DNA from: Thermodesulfobacteriota bacterium
GTDB taxonomy: Bacteria > Desulfobacterota > Desulfarculia > JACQYL01
Length of the DNA stretch: 64,000 bases
Direction of reading: 5' to 3'
NCBI GenBank assembly: GCA_963675595.2
Contig: CAXXLZ010000001.1
Coordinates: forward strand, 1,376,001-1,440,000
Part shown: positions 42,339-63,189 of the stretch, one piece after another
How positions within the stretch are numbered: the first letter of the stretch is position 1
Layout: each line of letters begins with the position of its first letter
Notes under the pieces: generated by a model
The model's database searches: none
Seen by the model: the letters and a program-made list of their open reading frames with translations, nothing else
Told to the model about the DNA's origin: nothing
Position numbers and translations under genes: made by a program

Positions 42339-42355
42339 GAACGCAATCTTAACCG

Positions 42356-42775
42356 TCAGAAGAAACCAAACAACCCCCGGTCCTTCTTCTCCTGCATCAC
42401 GCCTTTACGCTCTCTGGCCGACGCCGCAATGCCGGCGAGCTTCTCCAATGACTTCGCGAACCTGCTCGAAAAGACCCAGCCTTCCCGATAACCGTGCCGC
42501 TTATTGAAGCGAGAGACGTGGTCAATCAGCCCCATACGCCGCATCTTACTTCGGACGGTTTCGAGGATTCTCGATGAAAAACTGTATTTATTGCATAACG
42601 GCTGAAGGGTGCTCAAGAATTCATGCTTAGCATACTTGAGTTCGATGAAGATTGCGAGAAAAACTCGCTGATGGTTCTTGTTGGCTGGGAATAGGATAGC
42701 CGCGAGTTCATCCAGGTCCCGAGTCCTCGCGATCTTGTTATGGCTGAGTTCGATTTTGGTGCTGACGGTTGCCAT
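42356..42775 (-). CDS. Hypothetical protein, probable winged-helix
   Basis: LETVRSKMRRMGLIDH..GWVFS wHTH-like pattern; coupled to upstream stop, GAGGTG SD. Confidence 0.65.
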   Translation of the reverse strand: MATVSTKIELSHNKIARTRDLDELAAILFPANKNHQRVFLAIFIELKYAKHEFLSTLQPLCNKYSFSSRILETVRSKMRRMGLIDHVSRFNKRHGYREGWVFSSRFAKSLEKLAGIAASARERKGVMQEKKDRGLFGFF

Positions 42776-43143
42776 CACCTCGTATGCCGGCACCGGCCGA
42801 TGGCCGGCTTACCGTAACCATTCTCTTTCAGGGCTTCCTTCCGCAGTTCGACTCGTTGTTTCGCGATTTCGAGAGCCATGCCCCTAAGCTCAGTGCCAAA
42901 GGTATTTTCAACCCAATAAATCGCCTCATAGGCCGAGACGTACTTGTCACCAAAGAGCCTTTGAAACCGCCACCTGATTCCCTGGCGGGTGAGCCCAAAG
43001 GTATTCTCGATCTTGTCGCCGTAATTTCTGCGCAATACGAACCGCTTCAGGCCGTCCTCCTTCAGTTCAATCTTGAGGTCTCTATCGTCGATCAACATCT
43101 TGAGCTTTTCAATGAACTCCTTGTCCTTTTCAGTCAATTTCAT
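42775..43143 (-). CDS. Hypothetical protein, possible HTH
   Basis: FGLTRQGIRWRFQRL HTH-like; overlaps both neighbours. Confidence 0.65.
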   Translation of the reverse strand: MKLTEKDKEFIEKLKMLIDDRDLKIELKEDGLKRFVLRRNYGDKIENTFGLTRQGIRWRFQRLFGDKYVSAYEAIYWVENTFGTELRGMALEIAKQRVELRKEALKENGYGKPAIGRCRHTR

Positions 43144-43945
43144 TATAGGGCGGCTCGATTTCGATATCCGAGCCGTATTGTGTGACCCGCACTTCCCCAT
43201 CCTGAAGCAGGAAAATCAGAGCCATAAATCGCATCGCCCGATCTCTCCGGGCATTATCGATCAGGAGATCAATCCTGGAAAACAGGATTTGTTGACACCT
43301 GTGAACCGAATCCAGGATATGGCGTCTGTACCGGGACAGCCCAGGAAGATTCCCAGTCAGGGAGAACTCCTCGCCCCAAACTCCCGCGTCAAAACCCATG
43401 AAACCCGACAATGCTTCAGTAAACCCAGGCAAACGATCAAGCCGTGGTTCCTCCAGTAACGCCAACCCGCCCGACCGCTCTTCTCGACGGGCGAGCCTCA
43501 TCATCTCTCTTCGCCTTCTTGCCTTGGCTCTCGATTCAGCCATCCGTTGCCGGAAATAGGCTCGGTCGAAGACCCGTTCATCGAACAAGAACCGGGACGG
43601 CACGGTCTTCCCACAGGAAGCGCACGCATAATGAAGACTCCGCCTGACCAGCTTTGCTCCGCAGCAGCCGCTCCTTTGAAACACCACTGTGGGGTCGAGT
43701 TCATGGCCGCTCGGACAAACGGCCAGACCTGCCTCCAGCATCCGAAGTTTTTCACCGCATAGAGGACACAAATGATTCGCCAGCATAACGTCGTAGTAGT
43801 AGTCTCGGGCCGCAGCCTTGTATTGAGCAACGCCGAAAACAAACTCCCCGATAATCCGGCCGACGGCCGCCTCCGGCTCTTCCAAGTCAGAGACCATCGC
43901 TGAGTGTTCGCCAGACTGAGCCGGTTCCGGTGTTCCGCATTCCAT
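43130..43945 (-). CDS. Zn-ribbon protein with ScpA/kleisin-like C-terminal winged helix
   Basis: CPLCG, CPSGH, CCG, CASCG; C-term FMALIFLLQDGEVRVTQYGSDIEI resembles the ScpA C-terminal motif F.ALL.L...G.V...Q....DI.I. Confidence 0.6.
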   Translation of the reverse strand: MECGTPEPAQSGEHSAMVSDLEEPEAAVGRIIGEFVFGVAQYKAAARDYYYDVMLANHLCPLCGEKLRMLEAGLAVCPSGHELDPTVVFQRSGCCGAKLVRRSLHYACASCGKTVPSRFLFDERVFDRAYFRQRMAESRAKARRRREMMRLARREERSGGLALLEEPRLDRLPGFTEALSGFMGFDAGVWGEEFSLTGNLPGLSRYRRHILDSVHRCQQILFSRIDLLIDNARRDRAMRFMALIFLLQDGEVRVTQYGSDIEIEPPYNEID

Positions 43946-43968
43946 ATTTATTGGGAAGCAGAGCTTTC

Positions 43969-43983
43969 TTATAAACATTTCTC
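43969..43983 (-). promoter_or_regulatory. Archaeal-type BRE-TATA motif
   Basis: Minus GAGAAATGTTTATAA; ATG (43945) 25 nt after TTTATA, no SD. Confidence 0.55.
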
Positions 43984-44000
43984 TCCCACGCCGCAGAATT

Positions 44001-44016
44001 CGGAAAAGTTTATATA
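44001..44016 (+). promoter_or_regulatory. Archaeal-type BRE-TATA motif (divergent from previous)
   Basis: CGGAAAAGTTTATATA, then GAGGTGA SD (44039-44045) and ATG 44051. Confidence 0.65.
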
Positions 44017-44050
44017 CACCAGGGCCTTACCAAGTCCCGAGGTGATACCG

Positions 44051-44194
44051 ATGCCAAGACCCTATAAGTGCCCATATTGCGGCGCAACCCAAAGCCACTG
44101 GAAAGGATACAGGCCCCTTGTCCAGGGAAAAGTCCGGCTCCGGATGTGCACCAAGTGCCACCGGAAGTTCACGACTCGAGTTAAGATCGAATAA
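44051..44194 (+). CDS. Small zinc-ribbon protein (47 aa)
   Basis: MPRPYKCPYCG..CTKCHRKFTT; strong SD. Confidence 0.7.
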   Translation: MPRPYKCPYCGATQSHWKGYRPLVQGKVRLRMCTKCHRKFTTRVKIE

Positions 44195-44209
44195 CCACCG
44201 GACGGACCG

Positions 44210-45484
44210 TCAATGAAAACCGCCGAACGGCCCGGCACCAAATCCTTCTCTCGATAAGAACCGGTTGAGGGTTTCCTTGGGGAGCGACCTCGATATTTCT
44301 CTTGTCTGGCCGTACCTGCCGCGTGATATCAGCCGAGCGTTGATCAGCCCATAAAGGTCAAGGGAACCAATGATGTCCGAGAACCTCCGTTGCGTGAGCG
44401 GCCTGACCCGTTCCAACTCGCAGAAATTAGCGTATCGATCATAGGCTTCGCCCGTAGTGACCCGTTTCGAAGTCTTGGCCAGAAGATCGTAGCAGGAAAG
44501 AAGCGCAAGTTTTTGCTGAGGAGCGAGCGCCCGAACCATCTCTTCGGTCTTGTCCATCTCCAATCTGTGCTCAGCCATATCCACGATTTCTTCGGACAGC
44601 CTGCCGCCGGTTTCCTGCGCCACCTTGGCCGACTTTGATAGAAGCTCCACCGCCTTTCTCGCATCACCGGTGTCCCGCGACGCCAATGCCGCGATCTTTC
44701 GAACAGCAGCCACGTCCACCTTTGACTTGTCCAATGCCTTTTCCACTCGAAGATTCAGAATTTCTATCAAATCCAAGGCGTTATAGGGTTCAAAGAGCAT
44801 GTCCGTCTTCTTGAGAACACTCAGAATCCGCGGGTCCAGCATCTTGTCCCAGTTCAGTTTGTTCGTGACCATGATAAGAACCAACCGGCAGGGAATCTTT
44901 CTCGGAAGGGTCTTTCCGAGGAAGGTAATAAACTCGTCCGCATTGGGCTTGATGTTATCCGCCTCATCAATCAGGAGGCACAAGAAACCCTGGAACCGGT
45001 TCAGCTCTTCGATGATTCGTTCCTGCATCTGATCAATGGGAATGCCTTTCCTGTAGGTGCGAATCGAGTCATTGAGTGCTCTTGCAAGTTCATTCAACGC
45101 TCCGAAAGAGGACCTGGGCGAGGTCAAGTCCACGTATCTGTACTGAAACCCGATCGACTGAGTCCGGCAATATTCCTGGAAAGTTGAAAGCACGTGAATG
45201 AGGGAAACCGTTTTCCCTGAACCCGTAGGCCCGAAGACCAGCAAAGAACTCGGATGATCGCCGTCCAGGATGGGAGTCAGATGACAGACGATGCGTTTCA
45301 GCTGCTCTTCCCGGATATTCCGATCAAAAATCTCCTTCAGAACCGAAGTCCGCTCTTCTTCAGGCAACTTCTCGTCGTCCAGATAGTTGGGGTTCAAAAT
45401 AAGGCGATGATTCTTCTGTGAGTCATGCAATGTGCGGATGAATTGCAAGGAAGCTTCGGAATGATCTCCACCGGACATTTTCAA
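44210..45484 (-). CDS. cdc6: Orc1/Cdc6-family replication initiator (archaeal type)
   Basis: L.P.Y..REEQ; GPTGSGKT; LIDEAD; LDPRILS; FEPYNA.DL.EIL..R; TGDARKAVELL; wHTH TTGEAY..Y..PLTQRRFSDIIGSLDLYGLI..SRGRYGQTREI. Confidence 0.9.
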   Translation of the reverse strand: MKMSGGDHSEASLQFIRTLHDSQKNHRLILNPNYLDDEKLPEEERTSVLKEIFDRNIREEQLKRIVCHLTPILDGDHPSSLLVFGPTGSGKTVSLIHVLSTFQEYCRTQSIGFQYRYVDLTSPRSSFGALNELARALNDSIRTYRKGIPIDQMQERIIEELNRFQGFLCLLIDEADNIKPNADEFITFLGKTLPRKIPCRLVLIMVTNKLNWDKMLDPRILSVLKKTDMLFEPYNALDLIEILNLRVEKALDKSKVDVAAVRKIAALASRDTGDARKAVELLSKSAKVAQETGGRLSEEIVDMAEHRLEMDKTEEMVRALAPQQKLALLSCYDLLAKTSKRVTTGEAYDRYANFCELERVRPLTQRRFSDIIGSLDLYGLINARLISRGRYGQTREISRSLPKETLNRFLSREGFGAGPFGGFH

Positions 45485-45505
45485 GCGATTCTTCTACAGG
45501 ACATC

Positions 45506-45521
45506 TATAAATAGTTTTCGG
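45506..45521 (-). promoter_or_regulatory. Archaeal-type BRE-TATA motif upstream of cdc6
   Basis: Minus CCGAAAACTATTTATA, 22 nt before TTG 45484 and 28 nt before ATG 45478. Confidence 0.65.
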
Positions 45522-45568
45522 TAATAAGCCCTGTCGTTACTTGAAAGCGAACCGGATTTTAAGTGTGG

Positions 45569-45949
45569 GAAAGTTTCCGGTGGAACTTTCAGTTTCAGTT
45601 TTTAGTGATGTTTTCTTTTCCTTATTATTATTTATTTCTATATAGAAACTATATAATATAATATAATATAATATAATATAAAAGCCGCCAAAATATAGAA
45701 ACATTTTTAAAATAGATCACTTCAAAGTGGCAACAAAGAAACAAACATAACACACCCAACAAAACGGTTTCAAGTTTTCCACGCGACATTTACACACACT
45801 CTAAAAGCTGATTTTGGATCACTATTGAGTGACAACGTGGAGGCCATGACGTCCCTAAAAGACCTCGATCAACGACGGTATTTCAAGAAAACCCGAAACA
45901 ATCGGCCATTCGACAGTACAAGAGTAACGTTTCCACCGGAAGTTTACTC
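45569..45949. other. Putative replication origin: AT-rich DUE between inverted ORB-like boxes
   Basis: TTCCGGTGGAA (45575-45585) and its exact reverse complement TTCCACCGGAA (45931-45941) flank an AT-rich tract, adjacent to cdc6. Confidence 0.65.
45651..45680 (+). repeat. (ATATA)6 tandem repeat
   Basis: Read directly. Confidence 0.95.
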
Positions 45950-46011
45950 GGGTTCCCGAAGCCGGTTGACGTCAATCCATCCATTCCTCCGAGAAAATTC
46001 CCGAAACCAAC

Positions 46012-46515
46012 CTACATCTCATCCCAGTCGATATACTGAGGCGGACTTTCCCCCACCCTTTCGACGATCTTGGGATATTTTTCTCCCGGAGCCTCTTCTC
46101 CGATCTCGATCACCCGGATTTCGTGCCACCAATCGTCTCCGAAATCGAACCAATAGAAGAAGTGATCGCCCTCTTTCAGGTTCAGAGAGCCGATCTTGGT
46201 TCTTGAAACGTCTCCTGCAGGCGGAGGAGTTCCCAACGGATATTCCTTCATTTCGAAAGGAAGCACATACCTCTCCGCCTCGGGATCCTGCGGTATTTTG
46301 GAGAGCTGAAACTCGTAGAGGTGCTCGTCTTCACGATCAAAGGCTCTGAAGATCGCCCGGTGAAGCTGCCCCAGGGTATGCTTGCCTCGAACTTGAATGA
46401 CACGGAATACCGCCGGGTTCTTTGCGATGAAGGTCTTGCTCATGGGTCCGTTTGCAATGGAGACCTTTAAAGCGTACAGATTTTCCGCCCGCTTTCCTCC
46501 GGAACTCGTCGCCAT
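46012..46515 (-). CDS. pRiA4b ORF-3 / TnpR-like protein
   Basis: R.IQV..TL.QLH.AI..AF..EHLYEF..F.Y.FDFGDDWWHEI..YP.I....G..PPQY. Confidence 0.85.
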   Translation of the reverse strand: MATSSGGKRAENLYALKVSIANGPMSKTFIAKNPAVFRVIQVRGKHTLGQLHRAIFRAFDREDEHLYEFQLSKIPQDPEAERYVLPFEMKEYPLGTPPPAGDVSRTKIGSLNLKEGDHFFYWFDFGDDWWHEIRVIEIGEEAPGEKYPKIVERVGESPPQYIDWDEM

Positions 46516-46542
46516 TCACTTCCTCCTTGGTGATCCGAACAT

Positions 46543-46557
46543 CAAAAAACTTATAAA
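46543..46557 (+). promoter_or_regulatory. Archaeal-type BRE-TATA-like motif
   Basis: CAAAAAACTTATAAA, then GGAGGTG SD and ATG 46616. Confidence 0.45.
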
Positions 46558-46615
46558 GGAATGAACTTACCGGTATCCAACGGAATCGGCAAGAACCGAT
46601 TCGGAGGTGCACACC

Positions 46616-47059
46616 ATGGCAATGGAAACAAATTCGGCCACATCCGGCACACCATCAAGCGGCTGTCCCACTTGGGACGGAATGGGCATATCCGGCGATC
46701 TGCCGCCCTTTTTCAAGCCCACCGAAGACATGAAACGAAACGGCTTCGAAGTGATCTTTCTGTCCGACGGTCCCAGGAGAGAGACCGAGAACAACTTCGA
46801 CAAGAACTCGAAAGACCTCTGGTTCGATATCTCCTACCAGGACAAGGAAATGACCTGGACCATCAGCCAGATCAGCCTGCTTTCCGAACTGAAGAAGCAT
46901 TCACCGCTGAAGGAGAAGATCCTCAGGATACGCCTTGTTCCGGTGACCGAAGAATTCAGGAAAAAGCGGCCGAAGTACAGAGGCAGTGAGCGATACCAGG
47001 TTGAAGAAATCCGAGAAAACCGATTCGACAAGATCGACGTGGAAGAACTGACGGTATAG
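46616..47059 (+). CDS. Hypothetical protein, possibly ssDNA-binding (beta-rich, acidic tail)
   Basis: Strong SD; aromatic beta-strand pattern, C-term DKIDVEELTV; function is inference only. Confidence 0.6.
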   Translation: MAMETNSATSGTPSSGCPTWDGMGISGDLPPFFKPTEDMKRNGFEVIFLSDGPRRETENNFDKNSKDLWFDISYQDKEMTWTISQISLLSELKKHSPLKEKILRIRLVPVTEEFRKKRPKYRGSERYQVEEIRENRFDKIDVEELTV

Positions 47060-47198
47060 ATATTCTTTCTTCTTTTTGTTTCAGCCGATCGGAGATAAGA
47101 CGTGCGAAACAGACTCAAGTAATGGACGGAAGGAAAGACGGTCTGAACCGCCGACAGAACGAAAGCAGGCTGTAATCTCAGGGGACTTTATCTGAAGC

Positions 47199-47918
47199 TC
47201 AGCCCAAGGTCGTGAGACCATGGAGGATCGCGTATTTGGTCAACTGGGACATTCGCCTGGTTTTCAGCTTCTTCACAATATTCCTGCGGTGATTTTCCAC
47301 CGTATTCACGCTGACACAGAGTATGGCCGCCATCTCCGCACTGGTCTTCCCCTCGGTCATACCCTGGAGAACTTCCTTTTCTCTCGAGGTCAACGAAGGA
47401 AACGACCGGTGTCCGTTTCCATTGCCTAGCGCAAGCGCTTGAAACGCCTCAGTCATCGTTTCAGCGGATTTGCGGCAGAGATACATTCGGCCTTCGAGCA
47501 CCGAACGGACAGCCGCGACCAGCTCATGCAATCCGCTTTGACTGAGCACATACGCCATGGCCCCGGCAACGAGCATCTTGAACATGGGGTCCCATTCCGA
47601 ATCCGGCGCGAGTCCAACCACCCGGGTTTTTCGAAAACGATGCGTGATTTGACGCGCGGTCTCGATACCGTTCAAACCCTTCATGGAAGTGTTCACGATC
47701 ACCACGTCCGAGGGCGCGCTGGACAGCAGTTTAAGTGCTTCATGCCCGTCCAAAGCTTCACCCGAAACCTCAAGATCAGGAACAGAGCCCATCGCATGCC
47801 GCAAACCATCGAGAACCAGCCTTTGATTATCCACCAAAAAGATTCGCTTCTCGAACCACTCAACCGCTTCACCCTCTTCGGTTCGCTCCACGATCGCCCC
47901 CCGCAACAGACGATACAC
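47199..47918 (-). CDS. NarL/LuxR-family response regulator with atypical receiver
   Basis: LTSREKEVL..GKTS.E.A..L.VS.NTVENHRRNI..KL HTH; receiver has VIVNTSM in place of VI.D..M. Confidence 0.85.
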   Translation of the reverse strand: MYRLLRGAIVERTEEGEAVEWFEKRIFLVDNQRLVLDGLRHAMGSVPDLEVSGEALDGHEALKLLSSAPSDVVIVNTSMKGLNGIETARQITHRFRKTRVVGLAPDSEWDPMFKMLVAGAMAYVLSQSGLHELVAAVRSVLEGRMYLCRKSAETMTEAFQALALGNGNGHRSFPSLTSREKEVLQGMTEGKTSAEMAAILCVSVNTVENHRRNIVKKLKTRRMSQLTKYAILHGLTTLG

Positions 47919-48041
47919 TTCAGGATTAGATGCTCTGAAAACGAAAACCGGATCTCACGATAGAAAAATGTCAAATTTCTGAGCTTGAATGATATAAAAC
48001 TCTGAGACCTTGAACAATCGTAATAATCATGATTTTTCATC

Positions 48042-48100
48042 ATGGATTTCATGATTTCAATCTGTGGAAATCGCTAGACGAACTAATGGATTTTATGATT
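48042..48100. promoter_or_regulatory. Direct repeat ATGGATTTYATGATT x2, candidate operator
   Basis: Copies at 48042-48056 and 48086-48100, 44 bp apart, upstream of the regulator. Confidence 0.45.
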
Positions 48101-48365
48101 CAGCGCAGAAAGAAATGAAGGAACGAAAAACTATGGAAGGCTTATTCAATTGATATTATTGCATCTTATTCTTGAGCTGCGTCCGACGACCATCCCCCCG
48201 AAAACATCAGCAGCAGGTCGGCTCCCTTTTCAGTGGCCACGGCAGGTCGCCGTTTGACTCTTCACCTACGCAACCGCATCAAACATGCGGCAAACGTGGA
48301 AAGCAATCTCACATCCGCCGCTTTGGAACCCTTCGGAAGCGGCAGGCAGGAACTCCTTCGGCACC

Positions 48366-48899
48366 TCATTTTACTTCTTTTTGGGAAAGCCTGATCGTTC
48401 GAGTAACCGTCTCATGGGTATCATGGGAGATTCTTCCGTCGGCAAGCATCTCGTCCGCAAGGTCTTGTGCAGAGGCAAGATCAAGACGCCCGTCTTCAAG
48501 CCGATCCCGAAGCTCGTCCTTCATTTCCATGGCCTTTCCATCACGTCGTTTCAATATCTGATGATCCTCGGAAAGATCGATCAGCTGATCCATCGAAAGG
48601 CCCACGGAATCCAGATCTTCTTCGAACTGCTCTCTTCCCTTCTCGGAGAGATAGCGATGAAATTTGTCTTCCCATTCCGGCTGTGAGATGAATCCTTTGT
48701 CGTAAAGGTCATCGTACACTTCGAACTTCCGATCGGCGGTCAGCTCCTCGGCGTCCACAGGCTCTTCCGGATCAGTTTCGAAGGACAACAACTCCTTCCC
48801 CGCCTCCATGAACCAATCCATGAGGCCCTCCGATTTCGGATCCTCCTCAACAGAATCACAATCGAATTCCTCTTCCCCTCGTTCCCAATCCTTTCTCAC
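48366..48899 (-). CDS. Highly acidic hypothetical protein
   Basis: D/E-rich ORF; GGGAGG SD before GTG 48899. Confidence 0.6.
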   Translation of the reverse strand: MRKDWERGEEEFDCDSVEEDPKSEGLMDWFMEAGKELLSFETDPEEPVDAEELTADRKFEVYDDLYDKGFISQPEWEDKFHRYLSEKGREQFEEDLDSVGLSMDQLIDLSEDHQILKRRDGKAMEMKDELRDRLEDGRLDLASAQDLADEMLADGRISHDTHETVTRTIRLSQKEVK

Positions 48900-49037
48900 G
48901 GCAAACCTCCCTTTTCCAATAGAAGTGCTCGGAAAGAAATTTTCGTGTTTTGATTTTTTTCCCACACGTTTTCGATCGAGGGATCACTGGAGGAGTAAGG
49001 CAGGACGAAAACCACCCCAAACAAAAGGAGAAAGCCA

Positions 49038-49288
49038 TGAGATTTTCACGTCACCCCTTCACAGGAACGCTTCAGGTGAACTTCGGGCTTCCGCTTAGAA
49101 GAGACCATTTCAACCTGATTCACGATGTCAACGGAACAACCGTCGGCAGAATCGACCCCTGCGGCTTGGTCAAGGATCGCCTCGACAGAACCGTGGGGCA
49201 CTACGACATTTTCAAAACTGAGGATTACTGCCCCTGCTGCGGGAAGCTGTCGAAGCTTTGCCGGTGTCATGGCCACGACATGAGATAG
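49038..49288 (+). CDS. Small hypothetical protein with Cys-rich C-terminus
   Basis: AAGGAG SD before ATG 49038; CPCCGKLSKLCRCH. Confidence 0.5.
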
Positions 49289-49750
49289 CCGTTTCCTGAT
49301 TGAGCCCCTTCGGGGGCTCATCTTCATTTCCTTCCAGCCAAAATTCCCACAAGCCCTGTCGCGGAATAGCTTCGCTTTCGAGACGTCTCGTATCGGGTGC
49401 CCTGTCCTTGTTAATCGAGCCGTACCTGAAGAAACCGGTCGGTCGTCCACCGCAAAATGGTCAAGGTGTATAACGACAAAAGCGACGTTGAAAAAAGGTG
49501 GCATCCGCGGGATATTGGGGGTGCTCAGGAAAACTTCGAACCTTCAAGCCAACACAAGCCTGCCGACTGCCGTCATAAAGGCCCCGCAGAGCCCCTGTTT
49601 GAGAAAGATGCCGCATAATATCGGAGGACCCAAGCTGAAGCTTTTCGTAATGGCTTACAAACCCATCGCTATAGTCAATGACACTGATGATATACTGACA
49701 AAGTCGTATAACCTTTTTTCATCGGATAGGTAGCATTAAGGAGAATAAAA

Positions 49751-50638
49751 GTGTCCCTATTCACCATACTCAATAATATAGTCAATCACCCTTTTAACAA
49801 ATACAATAAGGCTGCGGCGATAGCCAGATTTGTAGGTTGGCAAATCGGCAGCAGATTAGTTCCAGGTGACGTTATTTTTGAATGGGTAAATAATTCCAAA
49901 CTTGTGGCCAGAACAGGTGAAATTGTTGTTACCGGTAATATTTACTGTGGTCTTCTTGAATTTCAAGATATGGGTTTCTTGCTTCACGTTTTGAGAGAAA
50001 GAGATATTTTTGTTGATATTGGAGCTAATGTTGGAGCCTACACTATTCTGGCAAGTGCAGCTATTGGTGCAAGCGCATATTGCTTTGAACCAGTCCCATC
50101 AACATTCCGTAGGCTAATGACAAATATTAGGCTAAACGCATTAGATAACAAAGTTATTTCATTAAATATGGCACTTGGAAATGCAAGAAAACAATTGCTA
50201 TTTTCTTCAGATGAAAGTGGCACCAGCCATGTCTTGGCAGATAATGAGAAAACTAAGAACGAAATTACTGTAAATTGTTCCACTCTTGATGATGAGCTGA
50301 AGGGTGACCCATTTCTAATAAAGATTGATGTGGAAGGATATGAAACTCCAGTACTGGAAGGTGCACAACATTCACTTAAGAATCCCAATCTTTGTGGAGT
50401 GATTATTGAATTGAACGATTCAGGACAAAGATACGGTTTTGATGAACAAATTATATTGCAAATGATGTTTGATCATGGATTTAAAACCTATTCATATTGT
50501 CCTTTTGAAAGAAAGCTAAGAATTTTGGGAGGTAAGAACGAATATGAAGGAAATACAATTTTTGTAAAGAATATCGATCGCGTCCTAAATAGAATCAATA
50601 AAGCTCCAAAGTTTGCTGTTCATGGGGTGTCAATATAG
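49751..50638 (+). CDS. FkbM-family SAM methyltransferase
   Basis: FVDIGANVGAY, FEPVP, IKIDVEGYE.PVL.GA; markedly AT-rich compared with surroundings. Confidence 0.92.
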   Translation: MSLFTILNNIVNHPFNKYNKAAAIARFVGWQIGSRLVPGDVIFEWVNNSKLVARTGEIVVTGNIYCGLLEFQDMGFLLHVLRERDIFVDIGANVGAYTILASAAIGASAYCFEPVPSTFRRLMTNIRLNALDNKVISLNMALGNARKQLLFSSDESGTSHVLADNEKTKNEITVNCSTLDDELKGDPFLIKIDVEGYETPVLEGAQHSLKNPNLCGVIIELNDSGQRYGFDEQIILQMMFDHGFKTYSYCPFERKLRILGGKNEYEGNTIFVKNIDRVLNRINKAPKFAVHGVSI

Positions 50639-51025
50639 GTGGATGCATAATCAAATTCGCTCTACCAGGACTTTAAGGCTTTACGAAGAGGGCAGTGCTC
50701 AACTTTAAATCGTGCCGCCCGGTAATTACGGGACGTCGACCATTCCTCCTCCGACGACAATTAGAATTCCTGAAGGTCTCCAACGTCGTTCGCAGGCCGG
50801 CGTTCTGCTCGATCCGCTCGGTTCAAGGAATTCCGCTCCGAACTCGGCCCGCACCAGAACAAATGGCCGTTACCTCGCTCCCGTTCCCGCCACCAGTCCG
50901 AAAGGGTCTCATCTTCCTCAAAAGGATGCGTAATCCGAAGTTCCTGTTTCATGGCCACCATTACGGCACGGTGGTATTTAAACCTGTCGAAAAGGGCTCA
51001 CGAAGAGCCCTCTTTTAACCTACAC

Positions 51026-51901
51026 TCAATCCAGAACGATCTTTCGCCGCGGCTGGTACATCAGTTCCCGCACTTGGTCATGCACGGAAGCCATCGCTTC
51101 CCGAATCCGGTTCTTGAGATAACCGCTTTCGCGAATGGACTCAGGCGACCTTCCGTCGAGCACCGACTCCGCCTGCTGCACGAGTTCCGCCAAGCCATTG
51201 TCGTCGAACACGTTTCGTTGTTTGAAGTGTTCGAAGAACTCATAGAAGTTCGTCACCGTCGATCCCTTGAACTTCTTGGCTTCGCCGTCCGGCCCAAGAC
51301 TGAACCGCTCGCAGATATGCCCGACAAGATCGGCGAACTCCTCTCGAAGACTATGCACGGCAAGCTCCCTGGCTTCTTCCATGGTTTGGATGAATTTTCG
51401 CTTTTCGCGCTCATACACTTCCGGCGCCAGGAGACCGAACCTGCCGTTGGGGACATCAAGAGCCACAAACCGCCACTCGAATGAAAACCGCCTATGAATA
51501 TCCACGGGGTAGTCCTGCTCATTGAACAGGTCACCGAGGTACGCAATGGCCGAGTCCCTGAGCGCCGGGTATCGTGAGGCAAAATCGTTCACGAGGTAGC
51601 CGAACTCAGATTGAAGCTCCCGCAACTTCGTGTCCACTTCGGTGATCAAGTCTTTCGGCACGAACATCATGCCGTGGATGGGAAAGGGCAGACTGACCGA
51701 TGTGAGGTAGAGCCGTGAATTGCCGGCCAATTTTGCGATGGGTTTCAGGCTTTCCGGATCCACGAGCTTTTTCGTTGCATGAAGCCACTCGTGGTTGCTG
51801 GTCATTTGAGCGAGTTTTCCCTGATCGATCTTTCTTCTCGCTCCCCACATGCTGATGGAGAGTTGCACCAGGCATCCTTTTTCGAAAATGTTTTCCATCA
51901 C
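51026..51901 (-). CDS. DUF3150-like mobile-element protein
   Basis: LVQLSISMWGARRK..KKLVDP..SLPF..FVP..FN..DYP pattern; family call from memory. Confidence 0.6.
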   Translation of the reverse strand: MMENIFEKGCLVQLSISMWGARRKIDQGKLAQMTSNHEWLHATKKLVDPESLKPIAKLAGNSRLYLTSVSLPFPIHGMMFVPKDLITEVDTKLRELQSEFGYLVNDFASRYPALRDSAIAYLGDLFNEQDYPVDIHRRFSFEWRFVALDVPNGRFGLLAPEVYEREKRKFIQTMEEARELAVHSLREEFADLVGHICERFSLGPDGEAKKFKGSTVTNFYEFFEHFKQRNVFDDNGLAELVQQAESVLDGRSPESIRESGYLKNRIREAMASVHDQVRELMYQPRRKIVLD

Positions 51902-52006
51902 CGTCTCCTTTCAGAGAAAAGAAAACCCCGATCTCCGAGTAACGGAAACCGGGGCATGCGTTGATTTATGGAAGTTATTTGGATACCGCCCGAGAGTTCT
52001 ATGCCG

Positions 52007-52405
52007 TCAGACTCCCGACATCCAGGCTTGCAGAGGACGTCCGCCTACCAACTCGACGAATTCAATGTCCAGAACCTCTTTCGCTGTAATGGCATAGCCC
52101 CACCGAAGATTGTCCTCACCTATAAACAGGAGATACGTCCTTGCATCCGGGTCGATGAGCTTTTGAATAAACAAGACGATTTCCCGCTCGTACGAGTGCT
52201 TTCCGTTGTAATCATCGGACTCGATGTAAATCCATTGTTTGCCGTCCTCAGACCGAAGCACGAAGTCATAGCCCAAATCTTCCGTTTTCAAAGGCGCATC
52301 CAAATGGTCACTAAAGGTTTCCTGAAAAACTCTCTCGATGTCCGAGCCGGCTTTGCACCAGGTTCTGAGCCGGTGCTCTCCTTCCAACGTTGAATAATAT
52401 CCCAT
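52007..52405 (-). CDS. Hypothetical protein
   Basis: ORF with GGAGGAGG SD in operon. Confidence 0.65.
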   Translation of the reverse strand: MGYYSTLEGEHRLRTWCKAGSDIERVFQETFSDHLDAPLKTEDLGYDFVLRSEDGKQWIYIESDDYNGKHSYEREIVLFIQKLIDPDARTYLLFIGEDNLRWGYAITAKEVLDIEFVELVGGRPLQAWMSGV

Positions 52406-52423
52406 GGTTCTCCCTCCTCCTGC

Positions 52424-52624
52424 CTACCCGCAAAGCGGCAGGTATTTTTTGACTGCCACTTCCTCTTCCACGTAATAGGCCGGTGTAAGTTCCCGCAAAG
52501 TTTCCGCTCCGAGAACCTCTTTCAGAAATTTCGATTCCTCGATACAGGCTTTGCCCTTGAACCCTCTTGTTTCGAGCTTGATCTCTCCATCCATGGATAC
52601 TTCCACAATGATTTCTTTCATCAC
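52424..52624 (-). CDS. DUF2997-like small protein
   Basis: DGEI.LE..GFKG.AC...S..L..LG..TP.YY; follows DUF1257-like gene. Confidence 0.8.
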   Translation of the reverse strand: MMKEIIVEVSMDGEIKLETRGFKGKACIEESKFLKEVLGAETLRELTPAYYVEEEVAVKKYLPLCG

Positions 52625-52630
52625 AGCCTC

Positions 52631-53002
52631 CTACATCCGGACGTGGAGCCGGATTGCATTTTCGGTTTTCTTTTCGATCACCGTGTAGCCTTTACGCCGA
52701 GCTTCGGTCCGGGTCTTCTCCACCGCATAGGCCTGCTTCAAGAGTCCTCCGTTTACGCCGATGGCTCTTTCCACGTTGGGGTCGTAGAAGTCGCACTGAA
52801 GCTGGTACCTGCCGTGCATCCTCTGAACGCCGATTTCATAATCCGCGCCGGGCAATCGAATGGCATGCTCGCACGCTGCATTGTTTCCGTACCACCGGAA
52901 CTCTTTCCTGCCTTCGAGAAACACCAGGCCCAGCCGATTACACGCAGACTTCAGGACAGCGAGGTCCTTTACTTCGAGTTCGATTTTGACGATATGACTC
53001 AT
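52631..53002 (-). CDS. DUF1257 (Ycf35)-like protein
   Basis: MSH...I..EV.DL..L..AC..LG..YEIG..Y.L..D..L.Q.YA..A...GY. Confidence 0.8.
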   Translation of the reverse strand: MSHIVKIELEVKDLAVLKSACNRLGLVFLEGRKEFRWYGNNAACEHAIRLPGADYEIGVQRMHGRYQLQCDFYDPNVERAIGVNGGLLKQAYAVEKTRTEARRKGYTVIEKKTENAIRLHVRM

Positions 53003-53481
53003 CGTATCCTCCGAATCGTTCTGACGGGTTCTTCGTCGCTTCTGCTCGCTCTCTTCGCCCGAGTCTCAGCCCAATCCCGGAGCGCTGAGAGCTGCTCCTT
53101 CATGGTTTTCGAAAGCGGAACAATGGCTTCACGAGCGTTTCCTAGGCCATCGAACAGCGAATCCTTGGCCAGCTGCTCGATCTCAGCGCCTGTCCATTCA
53201 GTGAGTTCAGCAGCATACTCGGAGGGTATTTCCGAACCGTATCGTTGATTCATGATCTCGATAATGGCTTCGCGCTCGTTTTTGTTCGGGATATCCACGA
53301 AAAAAAGGGCATCAAACCTCCCCGATCGCAGAAACTCAGGCGGAAGCCCCGAGATATCGTTGGCGGTTGCCATGACCAGAATCGGACTGGTAGTCTCTTG
53401 GAGCCAGAGGAGCAGATGCCCGAACATGGACGAGGTGGTACCGCCGTCCGTCATCCCCGAACTTTTCACCCCGGACAGCAC
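52999..53481 (-). CDS. Ycf46-like AAA+ ATPase, 3' exon
   Basis: DGGTT..FGHLLLWLQE..ATANDISGLPPEFLRSGRFDALFFVDIP..WTGAEIEQ; in frame with the 5' exon after intron removal. Confidence 0.9.
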   Translation of the reverse strand: MLSGVKSSGMTDGGTTSSMFGHLLLWLQETTSPILVMATANDISGLPPEFLRSGRFDALFFVDIPNKNEREAIIEIMNQRYGSEIPSEYAAELTEWTGAEIEQLAKDSLFDGLGNAREAIVPLSKTMKEQLSALRDWAETRAKRASRSDEEPVRTIRRIR

Positions 53482-56042: not shown

Positions 56043-56966
56043 CTTTTCCGTCTCATCGATCCATATGACCGCTTTTCCGAAAGCATCAATCGTTGCAGTA
56101 GCTTGCCTCATTTTTCGTTCGCTCTCTCCGACGAGAGAACCTTTCAAAGCGGACAAATCCAACCGGATGAGCGGCCATCCGAGGATCGAGGCCGCTGCCT
56201 TGCAGGAGAGCGATTTCCCGCAGCCCGGCACCCCGACCAAAAGCAAGGCTTTAGGTCTTGGCAGATGCTCATTGCCGGGCTCGAAGGCTTTCTTTCGGTT
56301 ATTGATGTACTCCTTCAGGAGATCGAGGCCTCCGACTTCTTCGATGGGCACCGGCGGCCAGAACTCCATCAGTCCCGTGCGTTTGATCATCTGCTTTTTC
56401 TGCTCGGTAACGATCTCCCTGCAGAACCGTTTTCGTTCCACCAAGGACCGGGCAAACGCGGTCTCAGCCTCGAACTCGGTAAGTCCCAGGGCAGATTCGA
56501 CAGCCTCCGCATCGGCTTCGATCCCGACGCTCTCCCCAAGCTCTTCCTGAATCCGTCGAAGTTCCTCAAGCCCCGGAAGTTCAAAGTCCAGCATGGTGAA
56601 GTACTTTTCCAATTCCGCCGGCAGGCTCACCTGAGGCCCCACCAAGACCAGACAACACCCTTGGCCTTTCCAGGAGGGCAGGCTGTTCTGGATTTCCTGG
56701 ATGATTTCCACGGAACCCAGGAAGTGATGAAAATTGTGCACGAAGAGCACGGTGTCCTCTTTTCCCGAGAGCCATTTGAGACTGCTCAAAGGATCGGTGG
56801 AATCGTCGTTTCGCATGCCGGACTGCAAATCCACGATGCCGCGTTGACAGTCCCAGGAAAATGTCCTCCATCCTTCGGGTCGAATGGAGCCGACCGCTCG
56901 ATCCGGTTCGAGGGTGATGATGTAAAGCGCCGGATACCCGGCTTTGAGATAACTCGAAATGTCCAT
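56043..56966 (-). CDS. Ycf46-like AAA+ ATPase, 5' exon
   Basis: EVGGLDLLK, GVPGCGKSL Walker A, VGESE, IWIDE Walker B; AAGGAG SD at ATG 56966. Confidence 0.9.
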
Positions 56967-57086
56967 ATCGTTCTCCTTCCGTTCGGAAACAGAAAAGGCC
57001 GCTTCCAGCTCACGGCCGGAAACAGCCCACAAAAAAAGCGGCCGAAGCCGCCGCCATCCATGCTCTTTGATTCTTTTCTTCTTTGT

Positions 57087-57380
57087 TTAGTAGAGATACT
57101 CCTCAACGAGTTTGTAGGGAAATTGCTCCACTTCCGCTTCTTCGTTGAACTGCTCGAGCCTGTCTCTGCCGGCCACCGGCTCCTCCACCGGAACAGCCCT
57201 GCAAAGGATCAAATGCCCGCCGAATCTTTGTCGCAAGACCCCGAGTTCCGAAACCGCCTCGACCGGGTCTCGGAATCCAACCGGGTCATCCTGACCCACC
57301 ACCATGGGCCCCAGCGGATGCCGTGGGTTGATGATGATGTAGACCGGAGCCTCGTTCTCGTTGATCCCGACTGACCGCAC
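57087..57380 (-). CDS. Hypothetical protein
   Basis: AAGGAG SD, GTG start, in operon. Confidence 0.6.
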   Translation of the reverse strand: MRSVGINENEAPVYIIINPRHPLGPMVVGQDDPVGFRDPVEAVSELGVLRQRFGGHLILCRAVPVEEPVAGRDRLEQFNEEAEVEQFPYKLVEEYLY

Positions 57381-57456
57381 AACCGTTCTCCTTTCTTAAG
57401 AAACAAAAAAACCGCCCTAAGACGGCTACTGATTTATTCCCGGACAAGAAGTTCAA

Positions 57457-57774
57457 TCAGACCCGGAGTCGAATCTTATCCACCTCCTTGACCTTCTTGG
57501 GCTCCCAGTAGAGGTCGCGATCCACTTCGAATCCCGGCCTGACCTTCAAAGCCCGAAGTTCGCTGAATGAGATATAGCCCCACTCAGCCATTTCCGGGTC
57601 ACCCAGGATCGCATAACCCCAGAACAGGTCTTCTCCGTCGTATTCCACGACGTACCAGTCAAAGGCTCCAAGGAAAAAATGCAGCCTGACCAGCTTCTCT
57701 TCGATGGGCGTTCCCTCGGTCTCATAGAGCCTCGGAAGCCTGTCCAATTCCTCTTTCGTCGGTATGTTCCACAT
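57457..57774 (-). CDS. DUF2958-like protein
   Basis: LP.LYETE..HFF....WY..EYD..GY..EWGY.S..EL..E.DLYW.P. Confidence 0.8.
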   Translation of the reverse strand: MWNIPTKEELDRLPRLYETEGTPIEEKLVRLHFFLGAFDWYVVEYDGEDLFWGYAILGDPEMAEWGYISFSELRALKVRPGFEVDRDLYWEPKKVKEVDKIRLRV

Positions 57775-57910
57775 GGTAAATCACCTCCCGCTTTTCCAAT
57801 TCTCCGCCGCAGAATACGCAGCGGCACTGATCGAGATAGGGAAACTCCCTTCCTTCGATGAAAACTTGAAGGAAGTACTCACTGCCGCAAAACCGGCACT
57901 GAACCCGCAT
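57722..57910 (-). CDS. Small zinc-finger protein
   Basis: CRFCG..CVFCGG; AGGAG SD. Confidence 0.5.
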   Translation of the reverse strand: MRVQCRFCGSEYFLQVFIEGREFPYLDQCRCVFCGGELEKREVIYHVEHTDERGIGQASEAL

Positions 57911-57920
57911 GACGCTCCTC

Positions 57921-63187: not shown

Positions 63188-63189
63188 TC

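What the first reader, a model, noticed from the sequence alone, without database searches (positions are those of the whole stretch)
42356..43945. Orphan kleisin-C-like / Zn-ribbon gene with two HTH partners next to cdc6
Seen: three overlapping genes behind a BRE-TATA. The first has Cys clusters, a basic helix and a C-terminus (FMALIFLLQDGEVRVTQYGSDIEI) resembling the ScpA winged helix, but no recognisable kleisin N-domain. No SMC gene is seen in the island part of the window. Known: the kleisin C-terminal wH binds the SMC head cap. Inference: an adaptor that recruits, or a mimic that blocks, host SMC or Wadjet-type complexes, serving segregation or anti-defence of the circular element.
Basis: inference. 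Interest (0 to 1): 0.7.

Follow-up and report, generated by a model that had tools for sequence, protein, structure and literature searches.

The report
Half-kleisin gene trio beside bacterial Orc1/Cdc6
Three co-translated genes on a bacterial mobile island, one ending in a domain that looks like the part of a kleisin that grips the SMC chromosome motor, sit beside an archaeal-type replication starter gene and may couple the island's DNA to the host's chromosome-folding machine.

Summary
The three overlapping minus-strand genes are real: gA 43130-43945, gB 42775-43143, gC 42356-42775. The setting was misread. The host is a bacterium (smc-ftsY, ScpAB), so "BRE-TATA" does not apply. The genes are not orphans either: gA has 207 representative relatives, gB 605 hits and gC 1158 hits, none with a Pfam family.

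The trio sits at the edge of a ~26 kb core. That core occurs four times in this genome, here inside a ~92 kb island integrated at tRNA-Arg. Across bacterial metagenome contigs gB precedes gC in 46 of 47 loci and gA in 24 of 25. An Orc1/Cdc6-like gene, a small Zn-ribbon gene and archaeal-type ORB-like boxes usually lie next to them.

The kleisin idea is partly supported.
- The gA C-terminus is a confident winged helix.
- Foldseek's top rows are Scc1/ScpA C-terminal domains, but none reaches E <= 0.001.
- A profile comparison with ScpA gives P = 7e-4, against 0.06-0.71 for controls.
- A co-fold with the host Smc head scores 0.74 against 0.23 for the best control. Like complexes are solved, so this may be recall.
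- gA has no kleisin N-domain, and no SMC gene is linked.

Best reading (about 0.4): a DNA-anchored "half-kleisin" adaptor to host Smc. Binding is unproven.

The parts
43130..43945 (-). gA: 271-aa protein (longest ORF runs to 43978). It has an N-terminal long helix, two Zn ribbons, a long basic helix, a variable linker, and a C-terminal kleisin-like winged helix (residues ~212-276 in 282-aa numbering).
   Evidence: ORF. Family alignment A1 of 51 sequences, with invariant C71 C74 C88 D95 Y117 C119 C122 S128 Y141 R150. AlphaFold2 model pLDDT 84.7. Foldseek and VIA results. hhalign against ScpA. dN/dS 0.26-0.40 among the four genomic copies.
42775..43143 (-). gB: 122-aa highly conserved small protein. 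Layout is helix, beta-hairpin, then an HTH-like helical part. Its start overlaps the gA stop by 14 nt.
42356..42775 (-). gC: 139-aa probable winged-helix DNA-binding protein. Its ATG shares one base with the gB stop (TGATG).
   Evidence: 1158 homologues, none with a Pfam family. Alignment A3. Weak Rrf2-type wHTH matches at E 0.59 and 0.98, not significant. Language-model neighbours are archaeal AF_0843 at 0.92 and HTH_CodY at 0.91. dN/dS 0.06-0.19. No structure was predicted.
44051..44194 (+). Small Zn-ribbon protein. The conserved part is ~47 aa; the longest ORF starts at 43904. It is divergently oriented to gA and lies between cdc6 and gA.
   Evidence: Pfam Zn_ribbon_NrdR E = 1.2e-5, 25.5 bits, below the 27.2 cut-off. 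tblastn relatives occur between cdc6 and gA in 5 of 11 genome loci and in 7 of 15 metagenome loci with at least 2400 nt upstream of gC.
44210..45484 (-). Orc1/Cdc6-family AAA+ initiator gene, immediately upstream of the trio on the same strand.
   Evidence: TIGR02928 253.8 bits (cut-off 181.3). Cdc6_C 1.6e-24, Cdc6_lid 2.3e-11. dN/dS 0.03-0.04 among copies. Linked to the trio in 6 of 11 genome loci and 6 of 9 metagenome loci with at least 4500 nt upstream.
45466..45945 (.). Origin-like region upstream of cdc6. An AT-rich (TATAA)n stretch at ~45620-45685 is flanked by ORB-like boxes: TTCCACCGGAAAC at 45573-45585 on the minus strand, and near copies at 45466 and 45931.
   Evidence: Sequence and repeats. 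The pattern TTCCANNGGAAA gives 2 matches in the window against 0.35 expected. The same box lies within 300 bp upstream of cdc6 in 8 of 9 other loci. Pyrococcus ORB and mini-ORB oligonucleotides in PMC1904270 hold TTCCACTGGAA and TTCCAGTGGAACT (passages read).
42348..64000 (.). Repeated ~26 kb element core, running on to about window coordinate 68100-68500, beyond the window. The trio is its first gene block. Four copies exist in the genome.
   Evidence: blastn of the window against its own genome gives 88-98% identity to C2:903702-927179, C2:1658055-1628647 and C2:4271208-4298435. The left edge falls 10-30 nt after the stop of the 1434-aa histidine kinase.
26412..27614 (.). Island boundary: tRNA-Arg (26412-26488, +) and a tyrosine integrase (26502-27614, -). 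The other end lies outside the window.
   Evidence: ARAGORN. Phage_integrase 1.2e-25. A 48-bp perfect repeat of the tRNA 3' half lies at C1:1494191-1494238, which is window coordinate 118191-118238.
6820..10386 (+). Host smc (1188 aa), the proposed docking partner of the gA C-terminal domain. It is followed by ftsY and lies outside the island.
   Evidence: SMC_N 4.3e-67 and SMC_hinge 3.1e-17; ftsY SRP54 1.1e-78. In the co-fold, the interface covers Smc residues 30-35 and 1155-1186 and gA residues 233-272.

Best explanation
gA, gB and gC form one conserved, translationally coupled module. It belongs to an archaeal-type replicon (Orc1/Cdc6 initiator, ORB-like origin boxes, small Zn-ribbon protein, sometimes ParA) carried by integrative elements of bacteria.

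I propose that the module is a DNA-anchored 'half-kleisin' adaptor. gB (HTH-like) and gC (winged-helix-like) would bind element DNA. gA would be the scaffold: its two Zn ribbons and long helices hold the complex together, and its C-terminal kleisin-type winged helix docks on the 'cap' surface of a host Smc head. That is the surface ScpA's C-terminal domain uses.

gA has no neck-binding N-domain, so it cannot close an SMC ring. It would instead tether or load host Smc-ScpAB at the excised, replicating element, to resolve and segregate copies. I prefer recruitment to blocking because a pure decoy would not need two strictly co-inherited DNA-binding partners.

Shown:
- gene structure
- conservation and linkage
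- bacterial host and mobile context
- winged-helix fold
- best similarity to kleisin C-WHDs
- an in-silico docking pass

Inferred:
- real binding to Smc
- DNA binding by gB and gC
- formation of a gA-gB-gC complex
- the direction of the effect
For: 1. One operon-like unit. gA/gB overlap by 14 nt and gB/gC by 1 nt.
2. Strict co-inheritance. gB lies upstream of gC in 46 of 47 metagenome loci with at least 700 nt of room, and gA in 24 of 25 with at least 1600 nt. In 11 genome loci gB was found in 10 and gC in 7.
3. All three are under purifying selection among the four in-genome copies, with dN/dS 0.06-0.40.
4. Replicon context.
- cdc6-like gene in 16 of 32 long sources, ParA in 6.
- L011 reads cdc6-ParA-121aa-70aa-gA-gB-gC.
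- ORB-like boxes in the window and in 8 of 9 other loci.
- gC and Orc1/Cdc6 co-occur in the only 2 of 301 sampled genomes of the phylum that hold gC, with 4 versus 4 and 4 versus 5 copies.
5. Kleisin-type WHD.
- The model has pLDDT >= 91 over residues 211-280.
- Foldseek ranks 1, 3, 4, 5, 7 and 8 are Scc1-C or ScpA-C, with TM-target 0.60-0.79 and rmsd 2.3-3.1 over 65-71 columns.
- hhalign against ScpA gives P = 7e-4, against 0.06-0.71 for seven control pairs. gA F251 aligns with the Phe of ScpA's helix-3 motif.
- ScpA fragments 5xg3_C and 5h66_C appear in the PDB profile search.
- ScpA clusters appear among language-model neighbours.
6. Co-fold of gA 195-282 with host Smc 1-200 and 990-1188.
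- Score 0.74 (runs 0.71, 0.74, 0.74); best of 3 controls 0.23.
- The mark was reached by 116 of 157 solved complexes and 2 of 215 mismatched pairs.
- The runs agree in at least 83% of contacts, and the partner's pLDDT is at least 74.
- The interface is gA helix 3 and wing against the last ~30 residues of Smc.
- ScpA's WHD binds the bottom 'cap' of one Smc head (PMC4442127, introduction passage).
7. The predicted interface residues are more conserved than the rest of the WHD: entropy 1.70 against 2.28 bits, permutation p = 0.013.
8. The host has a canonical Smc-ScpAB to dock on.
Against: - No similarity measure reaches a database-level threshold. Foldseek has 0 matches at E <= 0.001, best 9.3e-3. 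The PDB profile E values are 0.75-1.1. hhalign probability is only 14-26%.
- The co-fold can pass from memory of solved kleisin-SMC head complexes. The partner-replacement controls were unrelated proteins, not other winged helices. My own alignments and a three-chain set-up lie outside the tool's calibration.
- Interface conservation is confounded, because helix 3 also carries core residues.
- The module is linked to Orc1/Cdc6, never to an SMC gene: none recurs in 32 sources.
- The hosts span very different phyla, whose Smc proteins differ.
- gA lacks any kleisin N-domain. Pfam SMC_ScpA gives no hit at E <= 1, and hhalign aligns only the C-terminus.
- gB is not KITE-like.
- No RNA data were found.
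Confidence: 0.4

Rival explanations
1. Replication-initiation accessory. The trio works with the Orc1/Cdc6-like initiator at the ORB-like origin, for example as an adaptor that brings a bacterial helicase or primase to an archaeal-type initiator, or as an origin-remodelling or copy-control complex. On this view the kleisin-like look of the gA winged helix is generic or convergent and has nothing to do with SMC.
For: - The strongest and only conserved linkage is to cdc6, the small Zn-ribbon gene and ORB-like boxes.
- Genome-level co-occurrence with Orc1/Cdc6 in 2 of 2 gC-positive genomes, with matching copy numbers.
- Zn ribbons and winged helices are common in replication factors. This is general knowledge, not a call.
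Against: - It gives no explanation for why sequence-aware methods single out ScpA/Scc1 among all winged helices.
- It does not explain the docking pass on the Smc cap.
- No helicase or primase gene is conserved next to the module in 32 sources.
- Some loci have the trio without cdc6 within 4.5-8.6 kb upstream: L066 and L093.
Confidence: 0.3
2. Element regulators. gB and gC are transcription factors and gA is a Zn-ribbon co-regulator. Together they control excision, replication genes or immunity of the island, with no structural role on DNA and no contact with SMC.
For: - gC resembles Rrf2/CodY-type wHTH weakly.
- A conserved ~300-nt non-coding block lies between gB and gC in 37 of 56 loci and could hold regulatory sites.
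Against: - Three strictly co-inherited, translationally coupled subunits, including a 271-aa multi-domain scaffold, is unusual for a simple repressor.
- It gives no explanation for the ScpA-specific signal.
Confidence: 0.15
3. Anti-SMC decoy, the reader's 'mimic that blocks'. The gA C-WHD competes with ScpA (or a Wadjet/Mks kleisin) for the head cap. This opens or inactivates an SMC complex that would otherwise restrict or entrap the circular element.
For: - The same kleisin-like WHD and docking evidence as the main reading.
- The absence of a neck-binding N-domain fits a dominant-negative design.
- gA is the fastest-evolving protein of the module: dN 0.065-0.081 against 0.006-0.009 for cdc6.
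Against: - No Wadjet/Mks marker (DUF4194) was found in this genome, which is 98% complete.
- A decoy would not need two conserved DNA-binding partners.
- Four expressed copies blocking the host's only Smc-ScpAB would be costly. This is inference.
- dN/dS stays below 0.4, so there is no sign of positive selection overall.
Confidence: 0.1

Closest known systems
ScpA / Scc1(Rad21) kleisins, C-terminal winged-helix domain (PDB 4i99_C, 5h66_C, 5xg3_C, 1w1w_E)
   Same: The domain is at the extreme C-terminus. It has the same three-helix plus beta-hairpin fold (rmsd 2.3-2.8 over 65-70 columns, TM-target 0.70-0.79). The helix-3 motif is aligned, including the conserved Phe. It is predicted to sit on the same C-terminal 'cap' strands of the Smc head.
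   Different: There is no N-terminal neck-binding domain and no Pfam SMC_ScpA match. In its place are a long helix, two Zn ribbons and a basic helix. The gene is not encoded next to smc or scpB. It is carried by a mobile element beside an Orc1/Cdc6 gene. The similarity is below database significance.
KITE subunits (ScpB, MukE, Nse1/Nse3)
   Same: Small proteins encoded directly after the kleisin-like gene, at least one of them with a winged-helix-like sequence. A pair of partners follows one scaffold, as in Nse1/Nse3.
   Different: The gB model is a single HTH-like unit with an inserted hairpin, not tandem winged helices. Neither gB nor gC matches SMC_ScpB or DUF4194 at E <= 1. The ScpB row in Foldseek has E 0.88 and rmsd 8.8, which is meaningless. 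Binding to gA was not tested.
Archaeal Orc1/Cdc6-ORB replication origins
   Same: The neighbouring gene scores above the TIGR02928 cut-off and has the Cdc6 lid and WH domains. An AT-rich stretch is flanked by inverted TTCCAnnGGAAA boxes like the Pyrococcus ORB/mini-ORB core.
   Different: It is found in bacteria, on integrative elements. In 14 control genomes TIGR02928 rings only in the 3 archaea named. It is accompanied by the gA-gB-gC trio and a small Zn-ribbon gene, which are not known parts of archaeal origins as far as I recall.
ParB/parS as SMC loader on chromosomes and plasmids
   Same: Proposed logic only: a DNA-bound, element-encoded factor that brings host Smc-ScpAB to a defined site near an origin. 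ParB's loading role is described in PMC4442127 (passages).
   Different: There is no ParB-like sequence. The proposed contact is with the head cap through a kleisin-like WHD. Some relatives also carry a separate ParA gene, in 6 of 32 sources.

Membership tests
Kleisin superfamily (ScpA/Rad21/MukF-type SMC bridging subunits) | C-terminal winged-helix domain of the kleisin type | tested here: inconclusive
   - Foldseek's top rows are Scc1-C and ScpA-C, but the best E is 9.3e-3 and none reaches 1e-3.
- hhalign P = 7e-4 against controls of 0.06-0.71.
- PDB profile E 0.75 and 1.1.
Kleisin superfamily (ScpA/Rad21/MukF-type SMC bridging subunits) | C-terminal domain binds the cap of an SMC head | tested here: inconclusive
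   This is an in-silico test only. The co-fold score is 0.74 against a best control of 0.23. The mark was reached by 116 of 157 solved complexes and 2 of 215 mismatches. Contacts agree in at least 83% and the partner's pLDDT is at least 74. Like complexes are solved, so the pass may reflect likeness. No experiment was done.
Kleisin superfamily (ScpA/Rad21/MukF-type SMC bridging subunits) | N-terminal helical domain that binds the SMC neck coiled coil | tested here: not met
   There is no SMC_ScpA match at E <= 1. Full-length hhalign against 31 ScpA sequences aligns only residues ~195-275. In the model, residues 35-167 are a long helix, two Zn ribbons and a long helix. The N-part was not folded and searched alone.
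Kleisin superfamily (ScpA/Rad21/MukF-type SMC bridging subunits) | Encoded with, or dedicated to, an SMC-family ATPase | tested here: not met
   No SMC-like family recurs in 31 long related loci plus the window. There is no SMC_N match inside the window's island, C1:1402412-1494238.
KITE proteins (ScpB/MukE/Nse1-Nse3), for gB and gC | Tandem winged-helix domains that bind the central part of a kleisin | tested here: inconclusive
   The gB model is one HTH-like unit with a hairpin. There are no SMC_ScpB or DUF4194 hits. gC was not folded.
Orc1/Cdc6 replication initiators (neighbour gene 44210-45484) | AAA+ initiator module, lid and C-terminal WH above the curated cut-off | tested here: met
   TIGR02928 253.8 bits (cut-off 181.3). 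Cdc6_C 86.1 bits (cut-off 25.1). Cdc6_lid 43.8 bits (cut-off 27).
Orc1/Cdc6 replication initiators (neighbour gene 44210-45484) | Adjacent origin with ORB-type repeats around an AT-rich stretch | tested here: met
   Boxes at 45573-45585, 45931 and 45466 around a (TATAA)n run. The same box lies upstream of cdc6 in 8 of 9 related loci, and 10 of 16 hits fall in 2.4% of the sequence. The ORB core was taken from PMC1904270. Origin activity was not tested.

The most novel reading that the evidence does not exclude
A family of bacterial integrative elements replicates with an archaeal-type Orc1/Cdc6-ORB origin and carries a 'half-kleisin'. This is a Zn-ribbon scaffold whose kleisin-type winged helix plugs a DNA-bound gB/gC complex onto the free cap of the host's Smc head. 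The element thereby hijacks the host condensin for its own resolution and segregation. It would be the first mobile-element-encoded kleisin-like SMC adaptor.
Probability: 0.3. Interest if true: 0.85.

Novelty: new variant of a known kind. Interest (0 to 1): 0.7.

Why it matters
Kleisins are known only as dedicated ring-closing subunits of SMC complexes. A mobile-element protein that keeps just the head-cap-binding winged helix, and couples it to DNA-binding partners, would be a new way for selfish DNA to use or evade the host's chromosome-folding motor. It would also give a natural tool for probing the free cap of Smc-ScpAB.

Whatever the SMC link turns out to be, three abundant protein families have no annotation (207 representatives, 605 hits and 1158 hits). 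Here they are placed in one module with a bona fide Orc1/Cdc6 gene and ORB-like boxes in bacteria. That makes archaeal-type replication initiation in bacterial mobile elements directly testable.

Tried and rejected
FAMILY LIBRARIES
- Pfam, NCBIfam, PADLOC and PHROGs give nothing above cut-off for gA, gB or gC. Only Zn-ribbon noise appears for gA.

COLLECTIONS
- PLSDB plasmids with gC and gA: no match.
- GenBank phages with gC: no match.
- IMG/VR with the gC alignment: 97 pattern hits, none confirmed.
- So the module was not found on sequenced plasmids or phages in those collections.

TOOL ERRORS AND RETRIES
- The search for related loci with alignment A1 failed because no stretch was conserved enough. 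I repeated it with the single protein.
- My first hhalign run used a global mode by mistake and was discarded.

OTHER NEGATIVE RESULTS
- Rfam on six loci found no family for the conserved gB-gC spacer, only group II intron parts in L059.
- There is no tRNA-derived repeat near the end of the 26 kb core. The att repeat lies at 118.2 kb instead.
- The island's remaining 50 kb is sensory-kinase, chemotaxis and regulator cargo. No T4SS, relaxase, helicase or primase family was found in the 29 ORFs scanned.
- No RNA holder was listed among 9 runs, so expression could not be examined and no reads were laid.
- PF27297 (AF_0843) is not in the local Pfam, and the only paper hit was irrelevant.
- The search of earlier findings gave nothing for this place or sequence. 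One unrelated ORC-like ATPase note did not bear on this report.

LITERATURE
- Searches for bacterial Cdc6 elements and for kleisin-like mobile-element proteins found no description of this module. This covers only those term sets in the held library.

REJECTED READINGS
- An archaeal host.
- An orphan gene.
- A chance ORF: dN/dS is well below 1 and there are hundreds of relatives.
- A Wadjet target in this genome: no DUF4194.
Full report
WHAT IS THERE

The region holds three consecutive minus-strand genes.
- gA: the longest ORF is 43130-43978. The real start is most likely M12 at 43945, because homologues start there and the paralogues P0001 and P0002 are 271 aa.
- gB: 42775-43143. Gene callers use the 122-aa form, P0262.
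- gC: 42356-42775, the 139-aa form P0382.
- gB starts 14 nt before the gA stop. The gC ATG shares one base with the gB stop (TGATG, read). This arrangement suggests translational coupling.

gA has two Cys clusters. C71, C74, C88, C119 and C122 are invariant in a 51-sequence alignment. None of the three proteins matches any Pfam, NCBIfam, PADLOC or PHROGs family above cut-off.

NOT ORPHANS, AND NOT ARCHAEAL

gA has 113 word-index hits. Among 1.84 billion cluster representatives it has 207 relatives at E <= 1e-3, of which 55 are at E <= 1e-30. gB has 605 hits and gC 1158. All are unnamed 'hypothetical proteins'.

Several lines show that the host is a bacterium.
- The eleven named genome contigs that encode a gA relative are all bacterial MAGs: Syntrophobacteraceae, Deltaproteobacteria, Balneolales, Planctomycetota, Pirellulales, Phycisphaerae, Alphaproteobacteria, Gammaproteobacteria and three labelled only as uncultured bacteria.
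- The window's own genome is 6.79 Mb in 3 contigs. It has smc directly followed by ftsY, plus scpA and scpB.
- The island also carries LuxR-type and sigma-54-type regulators.

The 'BRE-TATA' reading therefore falls. The sigma-70 scan found promoter-like sites only upstream of cdc6, not in the 43946-44050 gap.

MOBILE CONTEXT

- The trio opens a ~26 kb core, from window 42348 to about 68100-68500. This core occurs four times in the genome at 88-98% identity.
- The window's copy lies in an island bounded by tRNA-Arg (26412-26488) and a tyrosine integrase. The other boundary is a perfect 48-bp repeat of the tRNA 3' half, 92 kb away.
- The core also holds DUF3150, DUF1257, an AAA gene split by a group II intron, RadC, a HerA-like ATPase and a PD-(D/E)XK nuclease.
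- The remaining island is sensory-kinase and chemotaxis cargo. No conjugation genes were found in the 29 ORFs scanned.
- In a sample of 301 genomes of the phylum, gC occurs in only two, each with four copies.
- Those same two genomes hold 4 and 5 Orc1/Cdc6 genes. TIGR02928 is above cut-off in only 3 of the 301.
- The module was not found in PLSDB plasmids, GenBank phages or IMG/VR.

A CONSERVED MODULE

In 80 metagenome loci recovered with gC, I counted how often each gene lies upstream of gC, given enough room on the contig.

| Gene | Room required upstream | Loci with the gene |
|---|---|---|
| gB | at least 700 nt | 46 of 47 |
| gA | at least 1600 nt | 24 of 25 |
| small Zn-ribbon gene | at least 2400 nt | 7 of 15 |
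| Orc1/Cdc6-like gene | at least 4500 nt | 6 of 9 |

- L082 is the one exception for both gB and gA.
- In the 11 named genome loci the counts are gB 10, gC 7, cdc6 6 and Zn-ribbon 5. Many of these contigs are short.
- I clustered all ORFs of 31 long loci plus the window. The only further recurrent neighbours are ParA (6 sources) and a HerA-like ATPase (6). No SMC-like family recurs.
- L011 reads cdc6-ParA-121aa-70aa-gA-gB-gC.

The neighbour gene at 44210-45484 is a true Orc1/Cdc6-family member: TIGR02928 253.8 bits against a cut-off of 181.3, and Cdc6_C 1.6e-24.

Upstream of it lies an AT-rich (TATAA)n stretch flanked by TTCCACCGGAAAC-type boxes.
- The same TTCCAnnGGAAA box lies within 300 bp upstream of cdc6 in 8 of 9 related loci.
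- 10 of the 16 hits in those loci fall in 2.4% of their sequence.
- The box matches the core of the Pyrococcus ORB and mini-ORB oligonucleotides printed in PMC1904270 (passages read).

The trio therefore belongs to an archaeal-type replicon module carried by bacterial integrative elements.

All genes are under purifying selection among the four copies.

| Gene | dN/dS |
|---|---|
| cdc6 | 0.03-0.04 |
| gC | 0.06-0.19 |
| gB | 0.08-0.12 |
| gA | 0.26-0.40 |

gA is the fastest-changing protein of the module.

IS THE gA C-TERMINUS KLEISIN-LIKE?

The AlphaFold2 model has pLDDT 84.7. Its layout is helix 35-66, two Zn ribbons at 70-125, helix 139-167, a less confident linker, and a confident winged helix formed by H214-228, H243-259 and the hairpin 264-275.

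Evidence for a kleisin relationship:
- Foldseek against the PDB finds nothing at E <= 0.001, but the list is headed by kleisin C-terminal domains. These are Scc1-C 1w1w_E (E 9.3e-3, TM-target 0.70), 6qpq_B and 6qpq_D, ScpA-C 4i99_C and 4i99_D (TM-target 0.72, rmsd 2.3 over 70 columns), 5h66_C (0.79) and 5xg3_C, and several RAD21-C chains. They rank ahead of MarR and ArsR regulators.
- A profile of the family against PDB sequences lists ScpA C-fragments at E 0.75 and 1.1. These are not significant, but they cover exactly the winged helix.
- hhalign of the gA C-terminal profile against 31 ScpA sequences from the phylum gives P = 7e-4 (probability 26%). It aligns gA F251 with the Phe of ScpA's helix-3 motif.
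- Seven control comparisons among other winged-helix-containing profiles (gC, gB, Cdc6, ScpA) give P 0.06-0.71.
- Language-model neighbours beyond the family's own clusters include two ScpA clusters, at 0.78 and 0.75. These are leads only.

Evidence against:
- The alignment-free VIA search shows a generic winged helix. Z runs from 9.4 (Rpc34, 2ns0) to 8.2 (Scc1-C, rank 7), 8.0 (6qpq_D), 7.9 (CAP-H2) and 7.7 (ScpA-C, rank 34). All are effectively tied.
- The N-terminal two-thirds of gA have no similarity to ScpA. I could not fold that part alone.

My reading is that the domain is probably, though not certainly, a kleisin-type WHD. gA is not a kleisin in the full sense.

DOES IT DOCK ON Smc?

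The chains were host Smc 1-200 and 990-1188 (alignment of 28 Smc sequences) and gA 195-282 (alignment A1).
- The model supports binding but does not show it.
- The score is 0.74 (runs 0.71, 0.74, 0.74), and the best of three controls is 0.23.
- The mark was reached by 116 of 157 solved complexes and 2 of 215 mismatched pairs.
- The runs agree in at least 83% of contacts, and the partner's pLDDT is at least 74.
- The interface is gA helix 3 and the wing (233-272) against Smc 1155-1186 and 30-35. That is the bottom of the head.
- ScpA's WHD is described as binding the 'cap' of one Smc head, while its N-domain binds the neck of the other (PMC4442127, introduction passage; see also the figure legend in PMC4989898).
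- The interface residues are more conserved than the rest of the domain: entropy 1.70 against 2.28 bits, p = 0.013. Core residues of helix 3 confound this.

Caveats:
- Like complexes are solved, so the pass may only restate the likeness.
- The controls were unrelated proteins, not other winged helices.
- The set-up differs from the tool's calibration.

THE PARTNERS

MECHANISM

Best reading (0.4): the trio is a DNA-anchored half-kleisin adaptor.
- gB and gC bind element DNA.
- gA bridges to the cap of a host Smc head. One cap is free in Smc-ScpAB, because a single ScpA bridges the dimer (PMC4442127).
- This loads or tethers condensin at the excised, Orc1/Cdc6-replicated element for resolution and segregation.
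- I prefer recruitment to blocking because a decoy would not need two co-inherited DNA-binding subunits.

Rivals:
- A replication-initiation accessory of the Orc1/Cdc6 origin with a merely generic winged helix (0.3).
- Element transcription regulators (0.15).
- An anti-SMC decoy (0.1). No Wadjet/Mks marker is present here.

NOVELTY

My searches of the held literature found no description of this module, or of a mobile-element kleisin-like protein. I rate it a new variant of a known kind. It has a kleisin-type head-binding domain in a new architecture and context, alongside a rarely noted archaeal-type origin module in bacteria. The central claim, binding to Smc, rests on weak but concordant similarity and one in-silico docking. 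It needs the bench tests listed under next steps.

Noticed in passing
window 45466-45945, and L011, L059, L064, L099, L100, L102, L111, L114 upstream of their cdc6 genes: Archaeal-type origin signature in bacteria. Inverted TTCCAnnGGAAA boxes, like the Pyrococcus ORB/mini-ORB core, flank an AT-rich (TATAA)n run next to a bona fide Orc1/Cdc6 gene. The signature is present in 8 of 9 related bacterial loci. TIGR02928 rings only in archaea among the 14 control genomes.
   Followed up: partly
L053-L127, between gB and gC (e.g. L059:9676-10000, L099:7141-7463): In 37 of 56 metagenome loci a ~230-330 nt spacer separates gB and gC. It carries strongly conserved nucleotide blocks and no conserved ORF. 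It gave no Rfam match in the six loci scanned. The spacer is absent in the window, where gB and gC overlap. It could be a cis site or a small RNA.
   Followed up: partly
window 42775-43143 versus its three paralogues on C2: Between the four element copies, gB has synonymous divergence of 0.8-1.1, while its flanking genes have 0.16-0.42. Its dN/dS stays at 0.08-0.12. This suggests module exchange or older alleles at this one gene.
   Followed up: no
window 26412-64000 and on to C1:1494238: A ~92 kb island sits at tRNA-Arg with a 48-bp att repeat. Its cargo is dominated by giant PAS/GAF hybrid histidine kinases, MCPs, CheW and response regulators. Three further diverged copies of the core lie on contig C2, at least one of them also bounded by tRNA-Arg-like repeats (C2:1712168 and 1618717). 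Another genome of the phylum (G067) also has four copies of gC.
   Followed up: partly
window 52999-55433: A group II intron (RT, maturase and HNH ORF at 53571-55433) sits next to or inside a truncated AAA gene (52999-53481) of the element core. The copy at C2:4281042-4290282 shows this stretch twice (52428-56042 and 53478-59085 both match).
   Followed up: no
L013:7827-11299: In one related locus the trio is followed by a JAB peptidase, an E2-E1 (Prok-E2_B/ThiF) fusion, and an HTH_3 plus M78 peptidase pair. This is a ubiquitin-like conjugation cassette of the kind seen in defence islands.
   Followed up: no
gC (window 42356-42775): Language-model neighbours of gC include the archaeal AF_0843 family (score 0.92, 4 hits). 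This hints that the partners, like the Orc1/Cdc6 gene, may have archaeal relatives. That Pfam family is not in the local library, so this could not be tested.
   Followed up: partly
C1:1458005-1514220 and many sites genome-wide: The genome is very rich in IS-like repeats. Units of 1.3, 1.4, 1.6 and 1.9 kb occur at 99-100% identity in dozens of copies on all three contigs.
   Followed up: no
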